The notes under the pieces were generated by a model, which saw only the letters and a program-made list of their open reading frames with translations, had not been told where the DNA came from and ran no database searches. The translations under genes were made by a program, and so were the position numbers. From the human T2T-CHM13v2.0 reference genome, Homo sapiens, in assembly GCF_009914755.1 (NCBI RefSeq), contig NC_060926.1: DNA of 64,000 nt; one strand, 5' to 3'. Shown here piece by piece: positions 30,776 to 34,635 of the stretch (position 1 is its first letter; each line of letters opens with the position of its first letter).

Positions 30776-30952
30776 CAGTGAAAGCTAGAATTGAAATCTA
30801 AGTCTTCATGACTCCTCTGCAAATTGCTGTGGGGAATTGTATTTGTCTGCTTGGGCTGCCGTAACAAAATAGCACAGATTGAGTGGCTTAAACAGGAATT
30901 TGTTTTCTCACACTTCTGGAGGCTGGAAGTCCAAGATCAAAATGCCAGCACG

Positions 30953-31249
30953 GGGCTACATATGGTGGCTCATGCCTGTAATCACAGCACTTTGGGAGGC
31001 TGAGGCAGGTGGATCACTTGAGTTTAGGAGTTCAAGACCAGCCTGGGCAACAGGTGAAACCCCCATCTCTACCAAAAAATACAAAAAAATTAGCCAGGTG
31101 TGGTGGGCACCTGTAATTCCAGCTACTCGGGAGGCTGAGGAAGGAGAATCACTTAAACCCAGGAGGCAGAGGTTGCAGTGAGCTGAGTTCACACCACTGC
31201 ACTCCAAACCCGGGGACAGAGTAAGACTCTGTCTCAAAAAAAAAAAAAA
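30953..31249 (+). mobile_element. Alu (S/J)
   Basis: TSD aaatgccagca. Confidence 0.9.
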
Positions 31250-31436
31250 GAAAATGCCAGCAGAGTTGGTTTCTGATAAGGCCTCTCTCCTTGAATTGCT
31301 CCTTCTCACTGTGCCCTCTCACAGTCTCTTCCCTCGGGGCATGCATGCAGAGAGGAGGGCTGTGGCGCTTCCTCCTTTTCTATAAGGACACCAATTTATC
31401 AGATTAGGACCCCACACTGAGAACCTCATTTAACCT

Positions 31437-31743
31437 TTTTTGTTTGTTTGTTTTGTTTGTTTTTGAGATGAAGTCTCACTCTGTCATCCAGGCTGGAGTG
31501 CAGTGGCGCCATCTCACCTCACTGCAACCTTTGCCTCCCGGGCTCAAGAGATTCTCCCACCTCAGCCTCTTGAATAGCTGGGACCATGGGCAAGCCCCAC
31601 CACACCCGGCTAATTTTTGTATTTTTAGTAGAAACAGGGTTTAGCCATGTTGGCCAGGCTGGTCTCGAACCCTTGACCTCAAGTGATCTGCCTGCCGCCT
31701 CCCAAAGTGCTGGGATTACAGGCATGAGCCACCACACTCAGCC
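31437..31743 (-). mobile_element. Alu
   Basis: TSD tcatttaacctt. Confidence 0.9.
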
Positions 31744-31854
31744 TCATTTAACCTTAATTACTTCCTCAAAGGCCTTATCACCAAATAGGGTCACACTGGG
31801 AGTCAGAGCTTTCACATGTGAATCTGGTGGGGAGATACAATTTACTCCAAGACA

Positions 31855-33601
31855 TTCCATCCTCTGGCCCCATAAAATTCATGTTCTTCTCTCATGCAAA
31901 ATTCATTCAGCCCATCCCAGCAACCCCAGACGTTTTAACCCATTCCAACATCAATTCCAAGTCCAAAGTCTCACTGAATATCTAAACCAGGTATGGGTGA
32001 GACTTGAGGTATGATTCATCCTGAGGCAAAATTCTCTCCAGCTGTGAACCTATGAAACCAGACAAGCTTATGTGCTTCCAAAATACGATGGTGGGGAGGC
32101 ATAGAATAGACATCCTTATTCCAAAAGGGAGAAATTGGAAAGAAGAAAGGGGCAATGGATCCCAAACAAATCCAAAACCTAGCAAGGAAAATTCCATTAG
32201 ATCTGCAATCCATTAGGCTGTAGTCCCAGCACTTTGGGAGGCCAAGGCAGAAGGATTACTTGAGCTCAGGAGTCCAAGACCATCCTGGGCAACATGGCGA
32301 AACTCTGTCTCTACAAAAAATACAAAAATTAGCCAGGTATGGTGGTGCATGCCTGTATTCCCAGCTACTCGGGGGTAGGGGTGCTGAGGCAGGAGGATTG
32401 CTTGAGCCCAGAAGGTCAAGGTTGCAGTTAGCCATGATCACACCACTGCATCCTAGCCTGGGTGACAGAAGGAGACCCTGTCTCAAAAAAACAAAAAATA
32501 ATGAATAATCCTCTTTGGCTGAATGCTGTGCCCACTGGGGCAGCTTCATCACCCCCACCACCCTAGGTGGTAGATCCCATTCTGCAGCTCTGCTAGTCAC
32601 CTTGCCCCTGAGGCACTGGGCAACATTTCGGCCCACTGAAACCAAGAAGGTGGCCCCGCTCTCTGAAAGCAGGAAAAAACAACCAAGCCCCTGGGCCTGG
32701 GGTGTGAATGGCAGCCCTGATAATCTCCAAATTGTCTTCAGGGGTCATTCTTCCCTTTTCTTGAAGGATAACGTATGTTCAAAGCTGGATAACTCTATTG
32801 TCCTGTCCTGTAGAATCCCAGAAGTCCAACAGCCTTCTTTCATTCTGTTCCATTTTCTCTGTTTTCTTTAGTCCCAGCTGGAAGTGTTTCTGCTAATATA
32901 ATCCCATCTCTATTCCTGGCTTCAACTGAGATGGTTGATTAAGTTCGTGGGAATCTTTTTATGGAGTGATTGTCCAGACAGGCCTTTGGTATTTGCACCA
33001 AGCAGAGAAACGTGTTTTCTCTCTTTTTGAAATATGGACAGGCTGAGCATTTCCAAATCTTTAAATTCTGGTTCCTTTTTGCATAACAATTCCTTCAACT
33101 TATCTCTTTCCTCTTGCATTTTATTATAAGCAGTAAGGAGAAACCAGGCTACACTTTCACCACTTTGCTTAGAAATCTCCTGTGCTAAATATCCAAGGTC
33201 ATCACTCCCAAGTTTTACCTTGACTGAACACAATTCAGCCAAGTTCTTTACTACTTTATAACAAGGATTGCCTTTTTACCAGTTTCCAACATCATGCTCC
33301 TCATTTCTGAGACCTTACCATAAGTACATTTAATGTTCATATTTCTACCAACATTCTGTTTATGATGATATATGTATTCTCTTAGATGATAGAAACTTTT
33401 TCTACAACTCTTTCCTTTCTGAGCCTTCACCAGAATCACGTTTAATGTTTGTATTTCTACCAACAGTCTCTTCAAGGCATTCTAGGCTTTTTCTAACATG
33501 CACCTCAAAACTCTTCAGTCTTTGCCCATTACCTAATTCCAAAGCCACTTCCACATTTTTAGGTATTTGTTATAGTAGCATCCACTCTTGGTAGCAAAAT
33601 C
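31855..33601 (-). mobile_element. MLT1A-type MaLR internal sequence with gag-like ORF remnants and tRNA-Leu PBS
   Basis: ORF remnant DDLGYLAQEISKQ..VAWFLLTAY (32922-33242); PBS tgctaccaagagtgga at 33596-33581; contains AluJ ~32217-32500. Confidence 0.85.
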
Positions 33602-33667
33602 TATATTAGTCAGGGTTCTCTGGAGAAACAGAACCTATAGGAGATATATACATCTCCTATGTATACA

Positions 33668-34087
33668 TAGATGGTCCCCAACTTATGATGGTTCAGAATT
33701 ATGATGTTTTTCACTTCATGATAGTGCAAAAGCAATACACATTCAGTAGAAACCATTCTTCAAATTTTCAGTTTGGATCTTTTCCTGGGCTAGCGGTATG
33801 TGGTATGATATTCTCTCATGATGCTGGGCAGCAGCAGTGAGCTGCAGCTCCCAGTCAGTCATACAATTATGAGGTTAAATAACTGATATTCTACAGTTTA
33901 CTGTATTGCCCGATGATTTTTGCCCAACTGTAGGCTAATGTAAGTGTTCCGAGCACATTTACATTAGGCAGGCCAAGCTGTGATGTTTGGTAGGTTAGGT
34001 GTATTCAGTACATTTTTGACTTATGATATTTTCAACTTACGATGGGTTTACTGAGATATATCCCCATCATAAGTCAAGGAACATGTG
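33668..34087. mobile_element. MER47-type Tigger MITE inside MLT2 LTR
   Basis: agatggtccccaacttatgatgg ... ttttcaacttacgatgggttta...cataagtcaagga. Confidence 0.8.
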
Positions 34088-34133
34088 TGTGTGTGTGTGT
34101 GTGTGAGAGAGAGAGAGAGAGAGAGAGAGAGAG
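34084..34133. repeat. (TG)n(AG)n compound microsatellite
   Basis: Direct reading. Confidence 0.95.
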
Positions 34134-34635
34134 TATGAGGTATTGGTTCAAGCAATTATGGAGGGTGGCAAGTTCAAAATCGGTAGAGCCAATGTCCCAG
34201 TTTCCATGTGAAGGCCAGCAGGCTACTGCAGAATCAGGAAGAGCTGATGTTCCAATTTTAGGTTTGTCAGGCAGAATTCTCTTTTATTTAGGGCAGGGTC
34301 AACCTTTTGTTCTATTTAAACTTTCAACTGATTGGATGAGGCCCACCTGCATCATGGAGGGCAATCTGCTTTACTTAGTCTACAGATTTAAATGTTAATC
34401 CCATTCAAAAACACCCTCATAAAACACCCAGAATAATGTTTGACCAAATATCTGGACACTTCATGAACCAGTCAAGTTGACACATAAGATTAACCATCAT
34501 AGGAATCATACCAGAAGATAGATGTGATCAAGGCTTAATGAGTATCCAAGACCAATGTAAGAGATTAGCACCAGGGCTAGAATTGTGATTTGCCATTCAG
34601 TCATTTCATACACATTTACTACACACATATTACTA

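What the first reader, a model, noticed from the sequence alone, without database searches (positions are those of the whole stretch)
30833..34506. Chimeric ERVL/MaLR provirus: MLT2 5' LTR + MLT1A0 internal and 3' LTR, joined at the PBS, with one shared TSD
Seen: on the minus strand an MLT2 LTR (34501-33602) is followed by gattt, a tRNA-Leu(TAA)-type PBS (tgctaccaagagtgga, 13/16 to TGGTACCAGGAGTGGG), MaLR internal sequence with its gag-like remnant, a PPT and an MLT1A0 LTR ending at 30838. The same 5-mer GGAAT lies immediately outside both ends (30833-30837 and 34502-34506); chance is roughly 1 in 1000. Established: reverse transcription normally gives two identical LTRs; MLT2 is the ERVL LTR; MaLRs are non-autonomous and thought to use ERVL machinery; second-strand transfer is guided by PBS complementarity. 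Inference: this is one integration of a hybrid cDNA formed when ERVL plus-strand strong-stop DNA jumped onto a co-packaged MLT1A minus strand via the shared PBS. That would be fossil evidence of helper/parasite co-packaging and would pair a specific MLT2 subfamily with MLT1A0.
Basis: partly seen in the sequence, partly recalled or inferred. Interest (0 to 1): 0.82.

Follow-up and report, generated by a model that had tools for sequence, protein, structure and literature searches.

The report
Recurrent ERVL/MaLR provirus with unlike LTRs
An ancient human retroelement copy carries a 5' LTR from one family and its internal part and 3' LTR from another, inside a single target-site duplication, and dozens of other human loci share this layout, which is fossil evidence that a helper retrovirus and its parasite were copied together in one particle.

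Summary
On the minus strand the order is ATTCC, an MLT2-type LTR (34501-33602), gattt, a Leu-type PBS, MaLR internal sequence, a purine tract, an MLT1A-type LTR (31859-30838), then ATTCC again.

It is not a one-off. Searches of the same genome gave about 46 more places where an MLT2-type LTR tail abuts this MaLR internal sequence. I read 16 of them.
- In all 15 read copies whose 3' LTR could be typed, it is MLT1-type.
- In 9 copies with both ends intact (window included), the flanking 5-mers match at 36 of 45 positions. Four pairs are perfect. Unrelated pairs average 1.28 of 5, and 0 of 50,000 re-pairings reached 36.
- The 5' and 3' LTRs of one element never align (0 of 9).
- Both LTR classes are equally diverged (76% and 75%).
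- The family switch sits at the LTR/PBS border.
- On a tree of the internal part, hybrids are scattered among canonical copies.

Each hybrid is therefore a separate single integration of a cDNA made from co-packaged ERVL and MaLR RNAs. Whether the joining step was an intermolecular plus-strand transfer is inferred, not shown. Family names are recalled; no Dfam check was possible. I found no published report.

The parts
34502..34506 (.). Upstream copy of the 5-bp target-site duplication (GGAAT on +, attcc on -).
   Evidence: Identical to 30833-30837. Class-wide flank test.
33602..34501 (-). MLT2-type (ERVL-type) 5' LTR. Starts tatgatgg and ends taatata. About 430 nt of LTR plus later insertions.
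   Evidence: Homologous to the 5' LTRs of L021-L028 and L032 at 70-83% identity, and to no 3' LTR. The family name is recalled.
34105..34133 (.). (GA)n microsatellite, followed by a (CA)n run, inside the 5' LTR.
   Evidence: (period 2, 14.5 copies).
33665..34090 (.). Later insertion with 27-nt inverted terminal repeats inside the 5' LTR. It looks like a small DNA transposon.
   Evidence: inverted pair I13 (33665-33691 and 34064-34090, 78% complementary). The other MLT2-type LTRs lack it.
33597..33601 (-). 5-nt spacer gattt between the LTR end and the PBS. The same spacer is seen after MLT1-type and MLT2-type LTR tails in other copies.
33581..33596 (-). Primer-binding site tgctaccaagagtgga (Leu-tRNA type).
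   Evidence: Same position and near-identical strings in 39 other copies. The tRNA assignment is recalled.
31860..33580 (-). MaLR-type internal sequence (MLT-int-like), non-coding, with an Alu at about 32216-32498.
   Evidence: 66-85% identical over its length to the internal parts of copies flanked by MLT1-type LTRs. No Pfam family.
31860..31871 (-). Polypurine tract ggggccagagga, directly before the 3' LTR.
   Evidence: The same border is seen in 30 other loci.
30838..31859 (-). MLT1A-type (MaLR) 3' LTR. Starts tggaatg and ends aaataca. About 420 nt plus two Alus (about 31436-31743 and 30954-31250).
   Evidence: Matches the LTR tails and starts of canonical copies. The family name is recalled.
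30833..30837 (.). Downstream copy of the 5-bp target-site duplication.

Best explanation
The element is a single integrase-made insertion of a hybrid cDNA. Its 5' LTR comes from an ERVL-type element (MLT2-type LTR). Everything from the PBS onward comes from a non-autonomous MaLR: the MLT-int-type internal part, the polypurine tract and the MLT1A-type 3' LTR.

Such a molecule cannot be inherited from a hybrid parent. One round of reverse transcription of one RNA makes both LTRs alike, so each hybrid must have formed anew inside a particle that held an ERVL RNA and a MaLR RNA.

The most likely step is this. Both RNAs were primed. The ERVL plus-strand strong-stop DNA (U3-R-U5 plus the 18-nt copy of the tRNA) annealed to the PBS copy at the 3' end of the MaLR minus strand instead of its own. 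Completion then gave MLT2 / PBS / MaLR-int / MLT1. The ERVL integrase, which must accept both kinds of LTR end, inserted it with a 5-bp duplication.

Shown here: single integration, unlike LTRs, the switch at the LTR/PBS border, recurrence at many loci, and equal age of the two LTR sets.

Inferred: co-packaging (strongly) and which strand transfer made the join (weakly). The confidence given is for the co-packaging and hybrid-cDNA reading. For the plus-strand jump in particular I would say about 0.5.
For: 1. Anatomy and the ATTCC/ATTCC flanks.
2. The same layout elsewhere.
   - 26 of the 39 non-self hits to the window's junction span at least 30 nt of MLT2-type tail plus the internal start. 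All 15 of these that I read have that tail. The 4 read hits with only about 9 nt of tail have MLT1-type tails.
   - Junction queries from L025 and L023 add 19 more places, and L041 adds 1.
3. Target-site duplications in the 9 hybrids with both termini:
   - WIN ATTCC/ATTCC, L022 GATAA/GATAA, L023 CCCAC/CCCAC, L026 ACTTC/ACTTC, L028 GCAGG/GCAGA, and four at 3 of 5. The total is 36 of 45.
   - The 72 unrelated pairs average 1.28 of 5, and none is perfect.
   - 0 of 50,000 re-pairings reach 36 (maximum 23). The slid control reaches at most 18.
4. LTR comparisons by blastn at E<1e-3, ordered pairs:
   - 5' v 5' across elements: 61 of 72 pairs align, mean 76% identity.
   - 3' v 3' across elements: 66 of 72, mean 75%.
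   - 5' v 3' in the same element: 0 of 9.
   - 5' v 3' across elements: 2 of 72.
5. Position of the switch, identity between hybrid and canonical copies:
   - 0.475 in the last 30 nt of the LTR (0.75 and 0.69 within each class);
   - 0.73, 0.80 and 0.76 in the next three segments from spacer+PBS onward, no lower than within the classes.
6. The internal part always goes with the 3' LTR family.
   - After the end of the internal part, the next sequence scored higher against the MLT1-type start than against MLT2-type starts in 31 of 32 loci, window included. Thirteen of these have an MLT2-type 5' tail. The 32nd (L053) has an Alu at the border.
   - L028 and L029 have MLT1-type 3' ends.
   - No MLT2/int/MLT2 element was seen.
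7. Not one lineage. On a tree of the first ~620 nt of the internal part (16 hybrid and 23 canonical rows), the label needs 9 changes and no supported hybrid clade exists.
8. In a sample chosen without regard to the LTR (29 loci), 24 have MLT1-type tails, 2 have MLT2-type tails and 3 have no LTR tail.
Against: - No Dfam or RepeatMasker was on hand.
L031 carried only an L1-like RVT_1 on the other strand.
- In retroviruses studied at the bench the second strand transfer is described as intramolecular (passage in PMC5086612). The proposed step is therefore unusual.
- Four of the 9 flank pairs match at only 3 of 5.
- Termini were set by gap-free alignment to other copies and read by eye.
- The tree shows weak clustering of hybrids. 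Only 16-17 of 500 label shuffles need as few changes. A partial lineage or sampling effect is not excluded.
- The reciprocal product (MLT1 / ERVL-int / MLT2) was not looked for, and no search aimed at the reversed one (MLT1 / MaLR-int / MLT2) could be made. In the LTR-blind sample, 0 MLT2-type among about 18 typed 3' LTRs is not significantly different from 2 among 26 typed 5' LTRs.
- There was no cross-species check and no empty site.
Confidence: 0.75

Rival explanations
1. Same co-packaging, different step. One minus strand, begun on the MaLR RNA, reached the PBS/leader and switched onto the intact 5' end of the co-packaged ERVL RNA. It copied ERVL U5-R and made a second R-guided jump to the ERVL 3' end. 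It then copied ERVL U3 and the PPT. The ERVL PPT primed the plus strand that defines the left end. The product is the same MLT2 / PBS / MaLR-int / MLT1 DNA.
For: It needs only one full minus strand, which fits the bench view that the second transfer is intramolecular (PMC5086612 passage). Run-on template switching that makes complex elements flanked by one TSD has been proposed for Triticeae (PMC1950507 section 4). All structural data fit it equally well.
Against: It needs more steps: a switch at or near the PBS, an extra R jump, and removal of the overhang. No 3-LTR or tandem intermediates were seen among the 16 loci read.
Confidence: 0.17
2. Two independent insertions, an ERVL or solo MLT2 and a MaLR, later fused by deletion or ectopic recombination between their similar PBS regions. 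The ATTCC match is then chance.
For: ERVL and MaLR share the spacer and PBS, which could guide recombination. MaLR LTRs are very common, and an unrelated older LTR end lies 130 bp upstream.
Against: It predicts unmatched flanks, yet 36 of 45 flank positions match over 9 loci and 4 pairs are perfect. It would also have to recur at about 46 places, always keeping the complete MLT2 LTR and the complete MaLR 3' half.
Confidence: 0.03
3. A self-propagating family that keeps two unlike LTRs by some unknown replication route, or copies spread by DNA duplication.
For: There are many copies, and hybrids cluster weakly on the tree.
Against: Ordinary reverse transcription of a hybrid's RNA would give U3(MLT1)-R-U5(MLT2) at both ends, which was not seen. 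Hybrids are scattered among canonical copies (9 label changes). Flanks and TSDs differ at every locus, so these are not segmental copies.
Confidence: 0.03
4. Misclassification. The 5' LTR is only a divergent MaLR LTR, and the element is an ordinary MaLR with badly decayed LTRs.
For: No Dfam check was possible, and MLT1 and MLT2 are distantly related (recalled).
Against: The 5' LTRs of hybrids align with one another (61 of 72 pairs) and the 3' LTRs with one another (66 of 72). 5' v 3' gives 0 of 9 in the same element and 2 of 72 across elements. Canonical copies carry the MLT1-type tail at the 5' junction (24 of 29). The two LTR sets differ in length: about 480-500 nt for uninterrupted 5' LTRs against 360-400 nt for 3' LTRs.
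Confidence: 0.02

Closest known systems
Canonical MaLR provirus (MLT1A0/MLT1A1 LTRs with MLT-int; pairing as listed in the table of PMC5753468)
   Same: The spacer, PBS, internal sequence, polypurine tract and 3' LTR are the same. The internal part is indistinguishable from canonical copies from the PBS onward. The TSD is 5 bp.
   Different: The 5' LTR belongs to another family and does not align with the 3' LTR.
ERVL / HERVL proviruses with MLT2 LTRs (PMC11319637 and PMC5753468)
   Same: The 5' LTR type, the TG..CA ends, the Leu-type PBS with the same spacer, and the 5-bp TSD.
   Different: There is no gag-pol-dUTPase internal part and no MLT2 LTR at the 3' end.
Template-switch complex LTR elements of Triticeae, rice and maize (Sabot and Schulman 2007, PMC1950507, section 4 read)
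   Same: A product of abnormal strand switching between co-packaged RNAs, inserted as one unit and flanked by one 5-bp TSD.
   Different: Those have three LTRs and two internal parts from one family, and the outer LTRs are alike. Here there are two LTRs from two families and one internal part.
Recombinant progeny of co-packaged ONSEN or Ty1 RNAs (PMC5668417 and PMC6894440, passages read)
   Same: Recombination during reverse transcription of two unlike co-packaged RNAs, involving defective and competent members.
   Different: Those give mosaic LTRs that are the same at both ends, within one family. Here the LTRs are whole, unlike, and from helper and parasite families.
Recombinant HERVs such as HARLEQUIN (PMC5753468 passage) and the mosaic HERVs of PMC4724089
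   Same: Internal parts and LTRs of different ERV families sit in one provirus.
   Different: Those are propagated recombinant lineages with matching outer LTRs (LTR2...LTR2). Here each copy appears to be a fresh, non-heritable product.

Membership tests
LTR-retroelement provirus from one integration | Short direct repeat of target DNA directly outside both ends | tested here: met
   ATTCC/ATTCC. Class-wide, 36 of 45 flank positions match against 1.28 of 5 by chance.
LTR-retroelement provirus from one integration | TG..CA-type LTR termini, a PBS just after the 5' LTR, and a purine tract just before the 3' LTR | tested here: met
   ta..ta (decayed TG..CA) in the 5' LTR, tg..ca in the 3' LTR, PBS at 33596-33581, ggggccagagga at 31871-31860. 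Other copies keep TG and CA (listing).
LTR-retroelement provirus from one integration | Two LTRs that are copies of each other | tested here: not met
   No alignment between the 5' and 3' LTR in 9 of 9 elements. One search shows only Alu repeats between the two regions.
MaLR (MLT1A0 / MLT-int) | Non-coding internal sequence homologous to that of copies flanked by MLT1-type LTRs | tested here: met
   No Pfam family.
MaLR (MLT1A0 / MLT-int) | MLT1-type LTR at both ends | tested here: not met
   The 3' LTR is MLT1-type. The 5' LTR is not.
MaLR (MLT1A0 / MLT-int) | Assignment to the named Dfam/Repbase subfamily | not testable with these tools
   No repeat library was held. The names are recalled.
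ERVL (HERVL, MLT2 LTRs) | MLT2 LTR at both ends | tested here: not met
   Present only at the 5' end. The 3' LTR start scores 230 against the MLT1-type start (a self-match) and 38.5 against MLT2-type starts.
ERVL (HERVL, MLT2 LTRs) | Internal gag-pro-pol with dUTPase | tested here: not met
   8 ORFs of the internal part gave no Pfam family at E<0.05.
ERVL (HERVL, MLT2 LTRs) | The 5' LTR belongs to the LTR family that flanks ERVL pol-bearing copies | tested here: inconclusive
   The only candidate (L031) carried L1-type RT on the other strand. Eight hits to L023's LTR tail run 11-15 nt past the LTR into the PBS and then stop. This fits another internal sequence, but their letters could not be fetched.
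Template-switch complex elements (Sabot and Schulman) | Three LTRs, two internal parts, outer LTRs alike, one TSD | tested here: not met
   Two LTRs, one internal part, outer LTRs unlike. Only the TSD feature is shared.

The most novel reading that the evidence does not exclude
A measurable share of full-length MaLR proviruses of this type carry a whole ERVL-type 5' LTR picked up afresh in the replication round that made them. The share is 2 of 26 typed copies in an LTR-blind sample, with about 47 places found in all. This would mean that ERVL and MaLR RNAs were routinely packaged in the same particle. It would also mean that in these particles the second (PBS-guided) strand transfer often went between molecules, which bench retrovirology treats as essentially intramolecular. 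Such hybrids would form a fossil record that pairs helper and parasite subfamilies by date, family by family.
Probability: 0.5. Interest if true: 0.8.

Novelty: new variant of a known kind. Interest (0 to 1): 0.68.

Why it matters
MaLRs are the most numerous LTR elements in mammals, about 386,000 copies per human genome according to PMC11319637. They are assumed to have been moved by ERVL because the sequences look alike.

A provirus with a helper LTR at one end and parasite sequence at the other, inside one target-site duplication, can only be made if both RNAs were reverse-transcribed together. It is therefore direct structural evidence for the helper-parasite link.

Because the class recurs, three things become testable:
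- which ERVL subfamily served which MaLR subfamily, and when;
- how often heterologous co-packaging happened;
- whether strand transfers in these particles followed the rules learnt from modern retroviruses.

It also matters for annotation. Pipelines that demand similar LTR pairs will miss or split these elements, and LTR-divergence dating cannot be applied to them.

Tried and rejected
- More loci:
The junction searches and the 3'-junction search gave tables only.
I did not ask again.
  - So I could not read the about 30 further junction places, the 39 LTR-blind 3' junctions, or the eight MLT2+PBS places.
- Link of the 5' LTR type to ERVL pol: L031 looked like MLT2 + PBS + another internal part. 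Its long ORFs are L1-type RVT_1 on the opposite strand, and 10 ORFs on the element strand gave nothing.
- 'Gag-like remnant': no Pfam support.
- Positive control for TSD decay in canonical copies: only L048 and L063 had both ends in hand, and their termini were too decayed to set. Dropped.
- A probe aimed at the reversed junction (internal end + MLT2 start): no natural sequence of that kind was in hand, and the termini vary too much for a short pattern. Not run.
- Loci left out of the TSD count of 9:
  - L030, L032, L033 and L034, whose 5' LTR is truncated;
  - L021, whose 3' end lies beyond the locus;
  - L035, whose 3' end was not found;
  - L031, which has another internal part;
  - L041, whose locus is too short.
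- Literature:
  - Five full-text searches and passages of PMC5753468, PMC6894440, PMC11319637, PMC5538554, PMC4724089, PMC5668417, PMC1950507 and PMC5086612 gave no report of MLT2 / MaLR-int / MLT1 proviruses.
  - Smit 1993 (PMC309426) and Du et al. 2010 (PMC2828711) are not held.
  - Repbase and Dfam curators' notes could not be seen and may mention this.
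Full report
**1. What is in the window**

Read on the minus strand, the stretch runs as follows.
- attcc at 34506-34502.
- An LTR from tatgatggttaat (34501) to ctgactaatata (33602).
- g+attt at 33601-33597.
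- tgctaccaagagtgga at 33596-33581.
- About 1.4 kb of non-coding internal sequence, ending in ggggccagagga (31871-31860).
- A second LTR from tggaatg (31859) to aaataca (30838).
- attcc at 30837-30833.

Later insertions explain the extra length:
- a (GA)n/(CA)n run;
- a roughly 420-bp insert with 27-nt inverted ends inside the 5' LTR (pair I13);
- three Alus.

The two LTRs are not copies of each other. One search finds no repeat between them other than Alus, and blastn finds none.

No repeat library was available to test them. A table in PMC5753468 pairs MLT-int with MLT1A0/A1, and pairs MLT2 LTRs with HERVL/ERVL internal parts.

**2. It is not a one-off**

The window's own assembly could be searched. 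With 161 nt across the 5' LTR/PBS junction as query (1211 first-look candidates, 40 scored), 26 of the 39 non-self hits covered at least 30 nt of the LTR tail as well as the internal start.

I read 19 of these hits.
- The 15 with long tail coverage all have the same kind of tail as the window.
- The 4 with only about 9 nt of tail have a different tail, the kind that ends the window's 3' LTR.

Wider stretches of 15 loci showed the whole layout again and again: an MLT2-type 5' LTR abutting the internal start, the internal 3' part, then an MLT1-type LTR.

Junction queries taken from two of these copies listed 19 further places, and L041 adds one more. That makes about 46 places besides the window, of which 16 were read. 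Each search scored only 40 candidates, so this is a lower bound.

**3. How common**

A query made only of internal sequence, and so blind to the LTR, gave 29 other loci.
- 24 have the MLT1-type tail at the junction. Two of these, L061 and L062, are identical copies.
- 2 have the MLT2-type tail (L041 and L060).
- 3 have no LTR tail.

Roughly one full-length copy in thirteen of this sample is a hybrid. The interval on that estimate is wide.

**4. Each hybrid is one integration**

Nine elements, the window included, keep both termini. I set the termini by gap-free alignment of the first 12-13 nt and the last nucleotides to other copies.

| Locus | 5' flank | 3' flank | Matches |
|---|---|---|---|
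| WIN | ATTCC | ATTCC | 5/5 |
| L022 | GATAA | GATAA | 5/5 |
| L023 | CCCAC | CCCAC | 5/5 |
| L026 | ACTTC | ACTTC | 5/5 |
| L028 | GCAGG | GCAGA | 4/5 |
| L024 | ATCAC | ACCAT | 3/5 |
| L025 | GGTTC | GGTCT | 3/5 |
| L027 | GTCTG | GTCAT | 3/5 |
| L029 | GGGAG | GGAGG | 3/5 |

The total is 36 of 45 matching positions. Controls from the same call:
- The 72 pairings of a 5' flank with another locus's 3' flank average 1.28 of 5. None is perfect and one reaches 4.
- None of 50,000 re-pairings reaches 36 (maximum 23).
- Sliding the 3' flank by 6-45 nt gives at most 18.

About 80% retention is what one expects of real 5-bp duplications in copies that are now about 75% alike. Flanks differ from locus to locus, so these are independent insertions and not duplicated segments.

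**5. Two LTR families of equal age, joined at the PBS**

Results for the nine elements, counted as ordered pairs at E<1e-3:

| Comparison | Pairs that align | Mean identity |
|---|---|---|
| 5' LTR v 5' LTR, across elements | 61 of 72 | 76% |
| 3' LTR v 3' LTR, across elements | 66 of 72 | 75% |
| 5' LTR v 3' LTR, same element | 0 of 9 | - |
| 5' LTR v 3' LTR, across elements | 2 of 72 | 78% |

Equal divergence suggests the two parts are the same age. As a rough inference, a Jukes-Cantor distance of about 0.15 per copy points to an early eutherian date.

Mean pairwise identity by segment across the junction, for 16 hybrid and 23 canonical copies:

| Segment | Hybrid v hybrid | Canonical v canonical | Hybrid v canonical |
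|---|---|---|---|
| Last 30 nt of the LTR | 0.75 | 0.69 | 0.475 |
| Spacer + PBS (+1..+25) | 0.77 | 0.70 | 0.73 |
| +26..+70 | 0.81 | 0.79 | 0.80 |
| +71..+130 | 0.77 | 0.76 | 0.76 |

From the spacer and PBS onward the hybrids are ordinary MaLR. The switch of family lies at the LTR/PBS border, within about 25 nt. The spacer g+attt and the PBS are the same after both kinds of LTR, so the exact base cannot be named.

**6. Polarity**

I took every locus where the end of the internal part was found with at least 80 nt beyond it. In 31 of these 32 loci the next sequence scored higher against the MLT1-type LTR start than against three MLT2-type starts.
- The window's own row is a self-match.
- The margin is small in L049 (52.5 v 49.0).
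- L053 has an Alu at the border and is untyped.

Thirteen of the 31 have the MLT2-type 5' tail. L028 and L029, which have internal deletions, have MLT1-type 3' ends. All 15 hybrids that could be typed are therefore MLT2 at the 5' end and MLT1 at the 3' end. No MLT2 / int / MLT2 element was seen.

I could not run a search aimed at the reversed layout. In the LTR-blind sample alone, 0 of about 18 typed 3' LTRs against 2 of 26 typed 5' LTRs is not a significant asymmetry.

**7. Not a lineage**

A maximum-likelihood tree of the first ~620 nt of the internal part (39 rows) is star-like.
- The hybrid label needs 9 changes, against a shuffled mean of 12.5. Only 16-17 of 500 shuffles need as few.
- No supported clade holds only hybrids.

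This fits the logic of reverse transcription. RNA from a hybrid provirus would run from R-U5 of MLT2 to U3-R of MLT1, and its progeny would have the same mosaic LTR at both ends. The hybrid form cannot breed true. The weak clustering may reflect how the loci were picked, or a period when one MaLR subtype and the helper were active together.

**8. Mechanism**

- Unlike LTRs inside one TSD rule out two insertions fused later.
- Minus-strand template switching alone gives matching LTRs, which were not seen.
- What is needed is a left end (U3-R-U5 of ERVL) templated by ERVL, joined at the PBS to a MaLR minus strand. That requires both RNAs in one particle.

There are two possible routes.
The ERVL plus-strand strong-stop DNA anneals through the tRNA-copied PBS to the MaLR minus strand.
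- (b) The MaLR minus strand runs on at the PBS onto the intact 5' end of the ERVL RNA, jumps by R to its 3' end and copies U3 and the PPT. The PPT then primes the left end.

Route (a) is simpler and predicts the reciprocal product. Route (b) agrees with the bench rule that the second transfer is intramolecular (PMC5086612 passage), and it resembles the run-on model for Triticeae complex elements (PMC1950507). I put about 0.5 on (a) and 0.2 on (b). Co-packaging, which both routes need, I put at about 0.75-0.8 overall.

**9. Comparison with what is known**

- The element works like a recombinant made from co-packaged RNAs, as in ONSEN and Ty1 (PMC5668417 and PMC6894440) and the Triticeae complexes. 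Those have like outer LTRs.
- Recombinant HERVs such as HARLEQUIN (PMC5753468) are propagated lineages with matching LTRs.
- The recent re-analysis of MLT2 subfamilies (PMC11319637; first part and passages read) reports hybrid LTR annotations within MLT2. It repeats that HERVL moved MaLRs, but it does not describe MLT2/MaLR proviruses.
- Five full-text searches found no such report.
- Smit 1993 and Du et al. 2010 were not held, and curators' notes in Dfam or Repbase could not be seen.

I therefore rate it a new variant of a known kind, with the reservation that repeat curators may know of it.

**10. Limits**

- Family names are unverified.
- No ERVL pol link was made here.
- No other species was examined.
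- Termini were set by eye.

Noticed in passing
window 33665-34090: An insert of about 420 bp with 27-nt inverted ends (78% complementary) sits inside the 5' LTR, next to a (GA)n/(CA)n run at about 34087-34133. It looks like a small DNA transposon that arrived after the provirus. The family was not identified.
   Followed up: partly
window 34637-34745 (minus strand): The 3' end of another, older-looking MaLR-like LTR lies 130 bp upstream of the hybrid in the same orientation. Its tail differs from the hybrid's 3' LTR and no PBS follows it. Other hybrid loci show no such neighbour, so I take it as coincidence.
   Followed up: partly
window 33301-33388 and 33413-33500: An 88-nt direct repeat (72% identity, 112 nt apart) lies inside the internal sequence. 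The same self-match (internal positions about 130-190 against 242-300) recurs in many other copies. It is therefore an old internal duplication of this MaLR internal sequence.
   Followed up: partly
L061 (C23:100.83 Mb, minus) and L062 (C23:100.74 Mb, plus): Two canonical copies on contig 23 give identical blast rows in opposite orientation about 94 kb apart. This suggests a recent inverted segmental duplication.
   Followed up: no
L026 (oriented 2022-2278): The 5' LTR of this hybrid holds three tandem copies of a roughly 90-nt piece that is single in L027. This is a tandem expansion in the R/U5-side part of that LTR.
   Followed up: no
L021 (oriented 3750-8370): This hybrid's internal part is split by about 4.6 kb of foreign sequence, including Alus. 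Its 3' LTR start is MLT1-type, but the end lies beyond the stretch fetched.
   Followed up: no
L031 (C22:6.27 Mb) and hits at C16:32.82 Mb and C16:34.65 Mb: An MLT2-type LTR plus PBS is followed by only about 65 nt like the MaLR internal start. L1-type reverse transcriptase ORFs lie on the other strand. The three places may be paralogous pericentromeric copies.
   Followed up: partly
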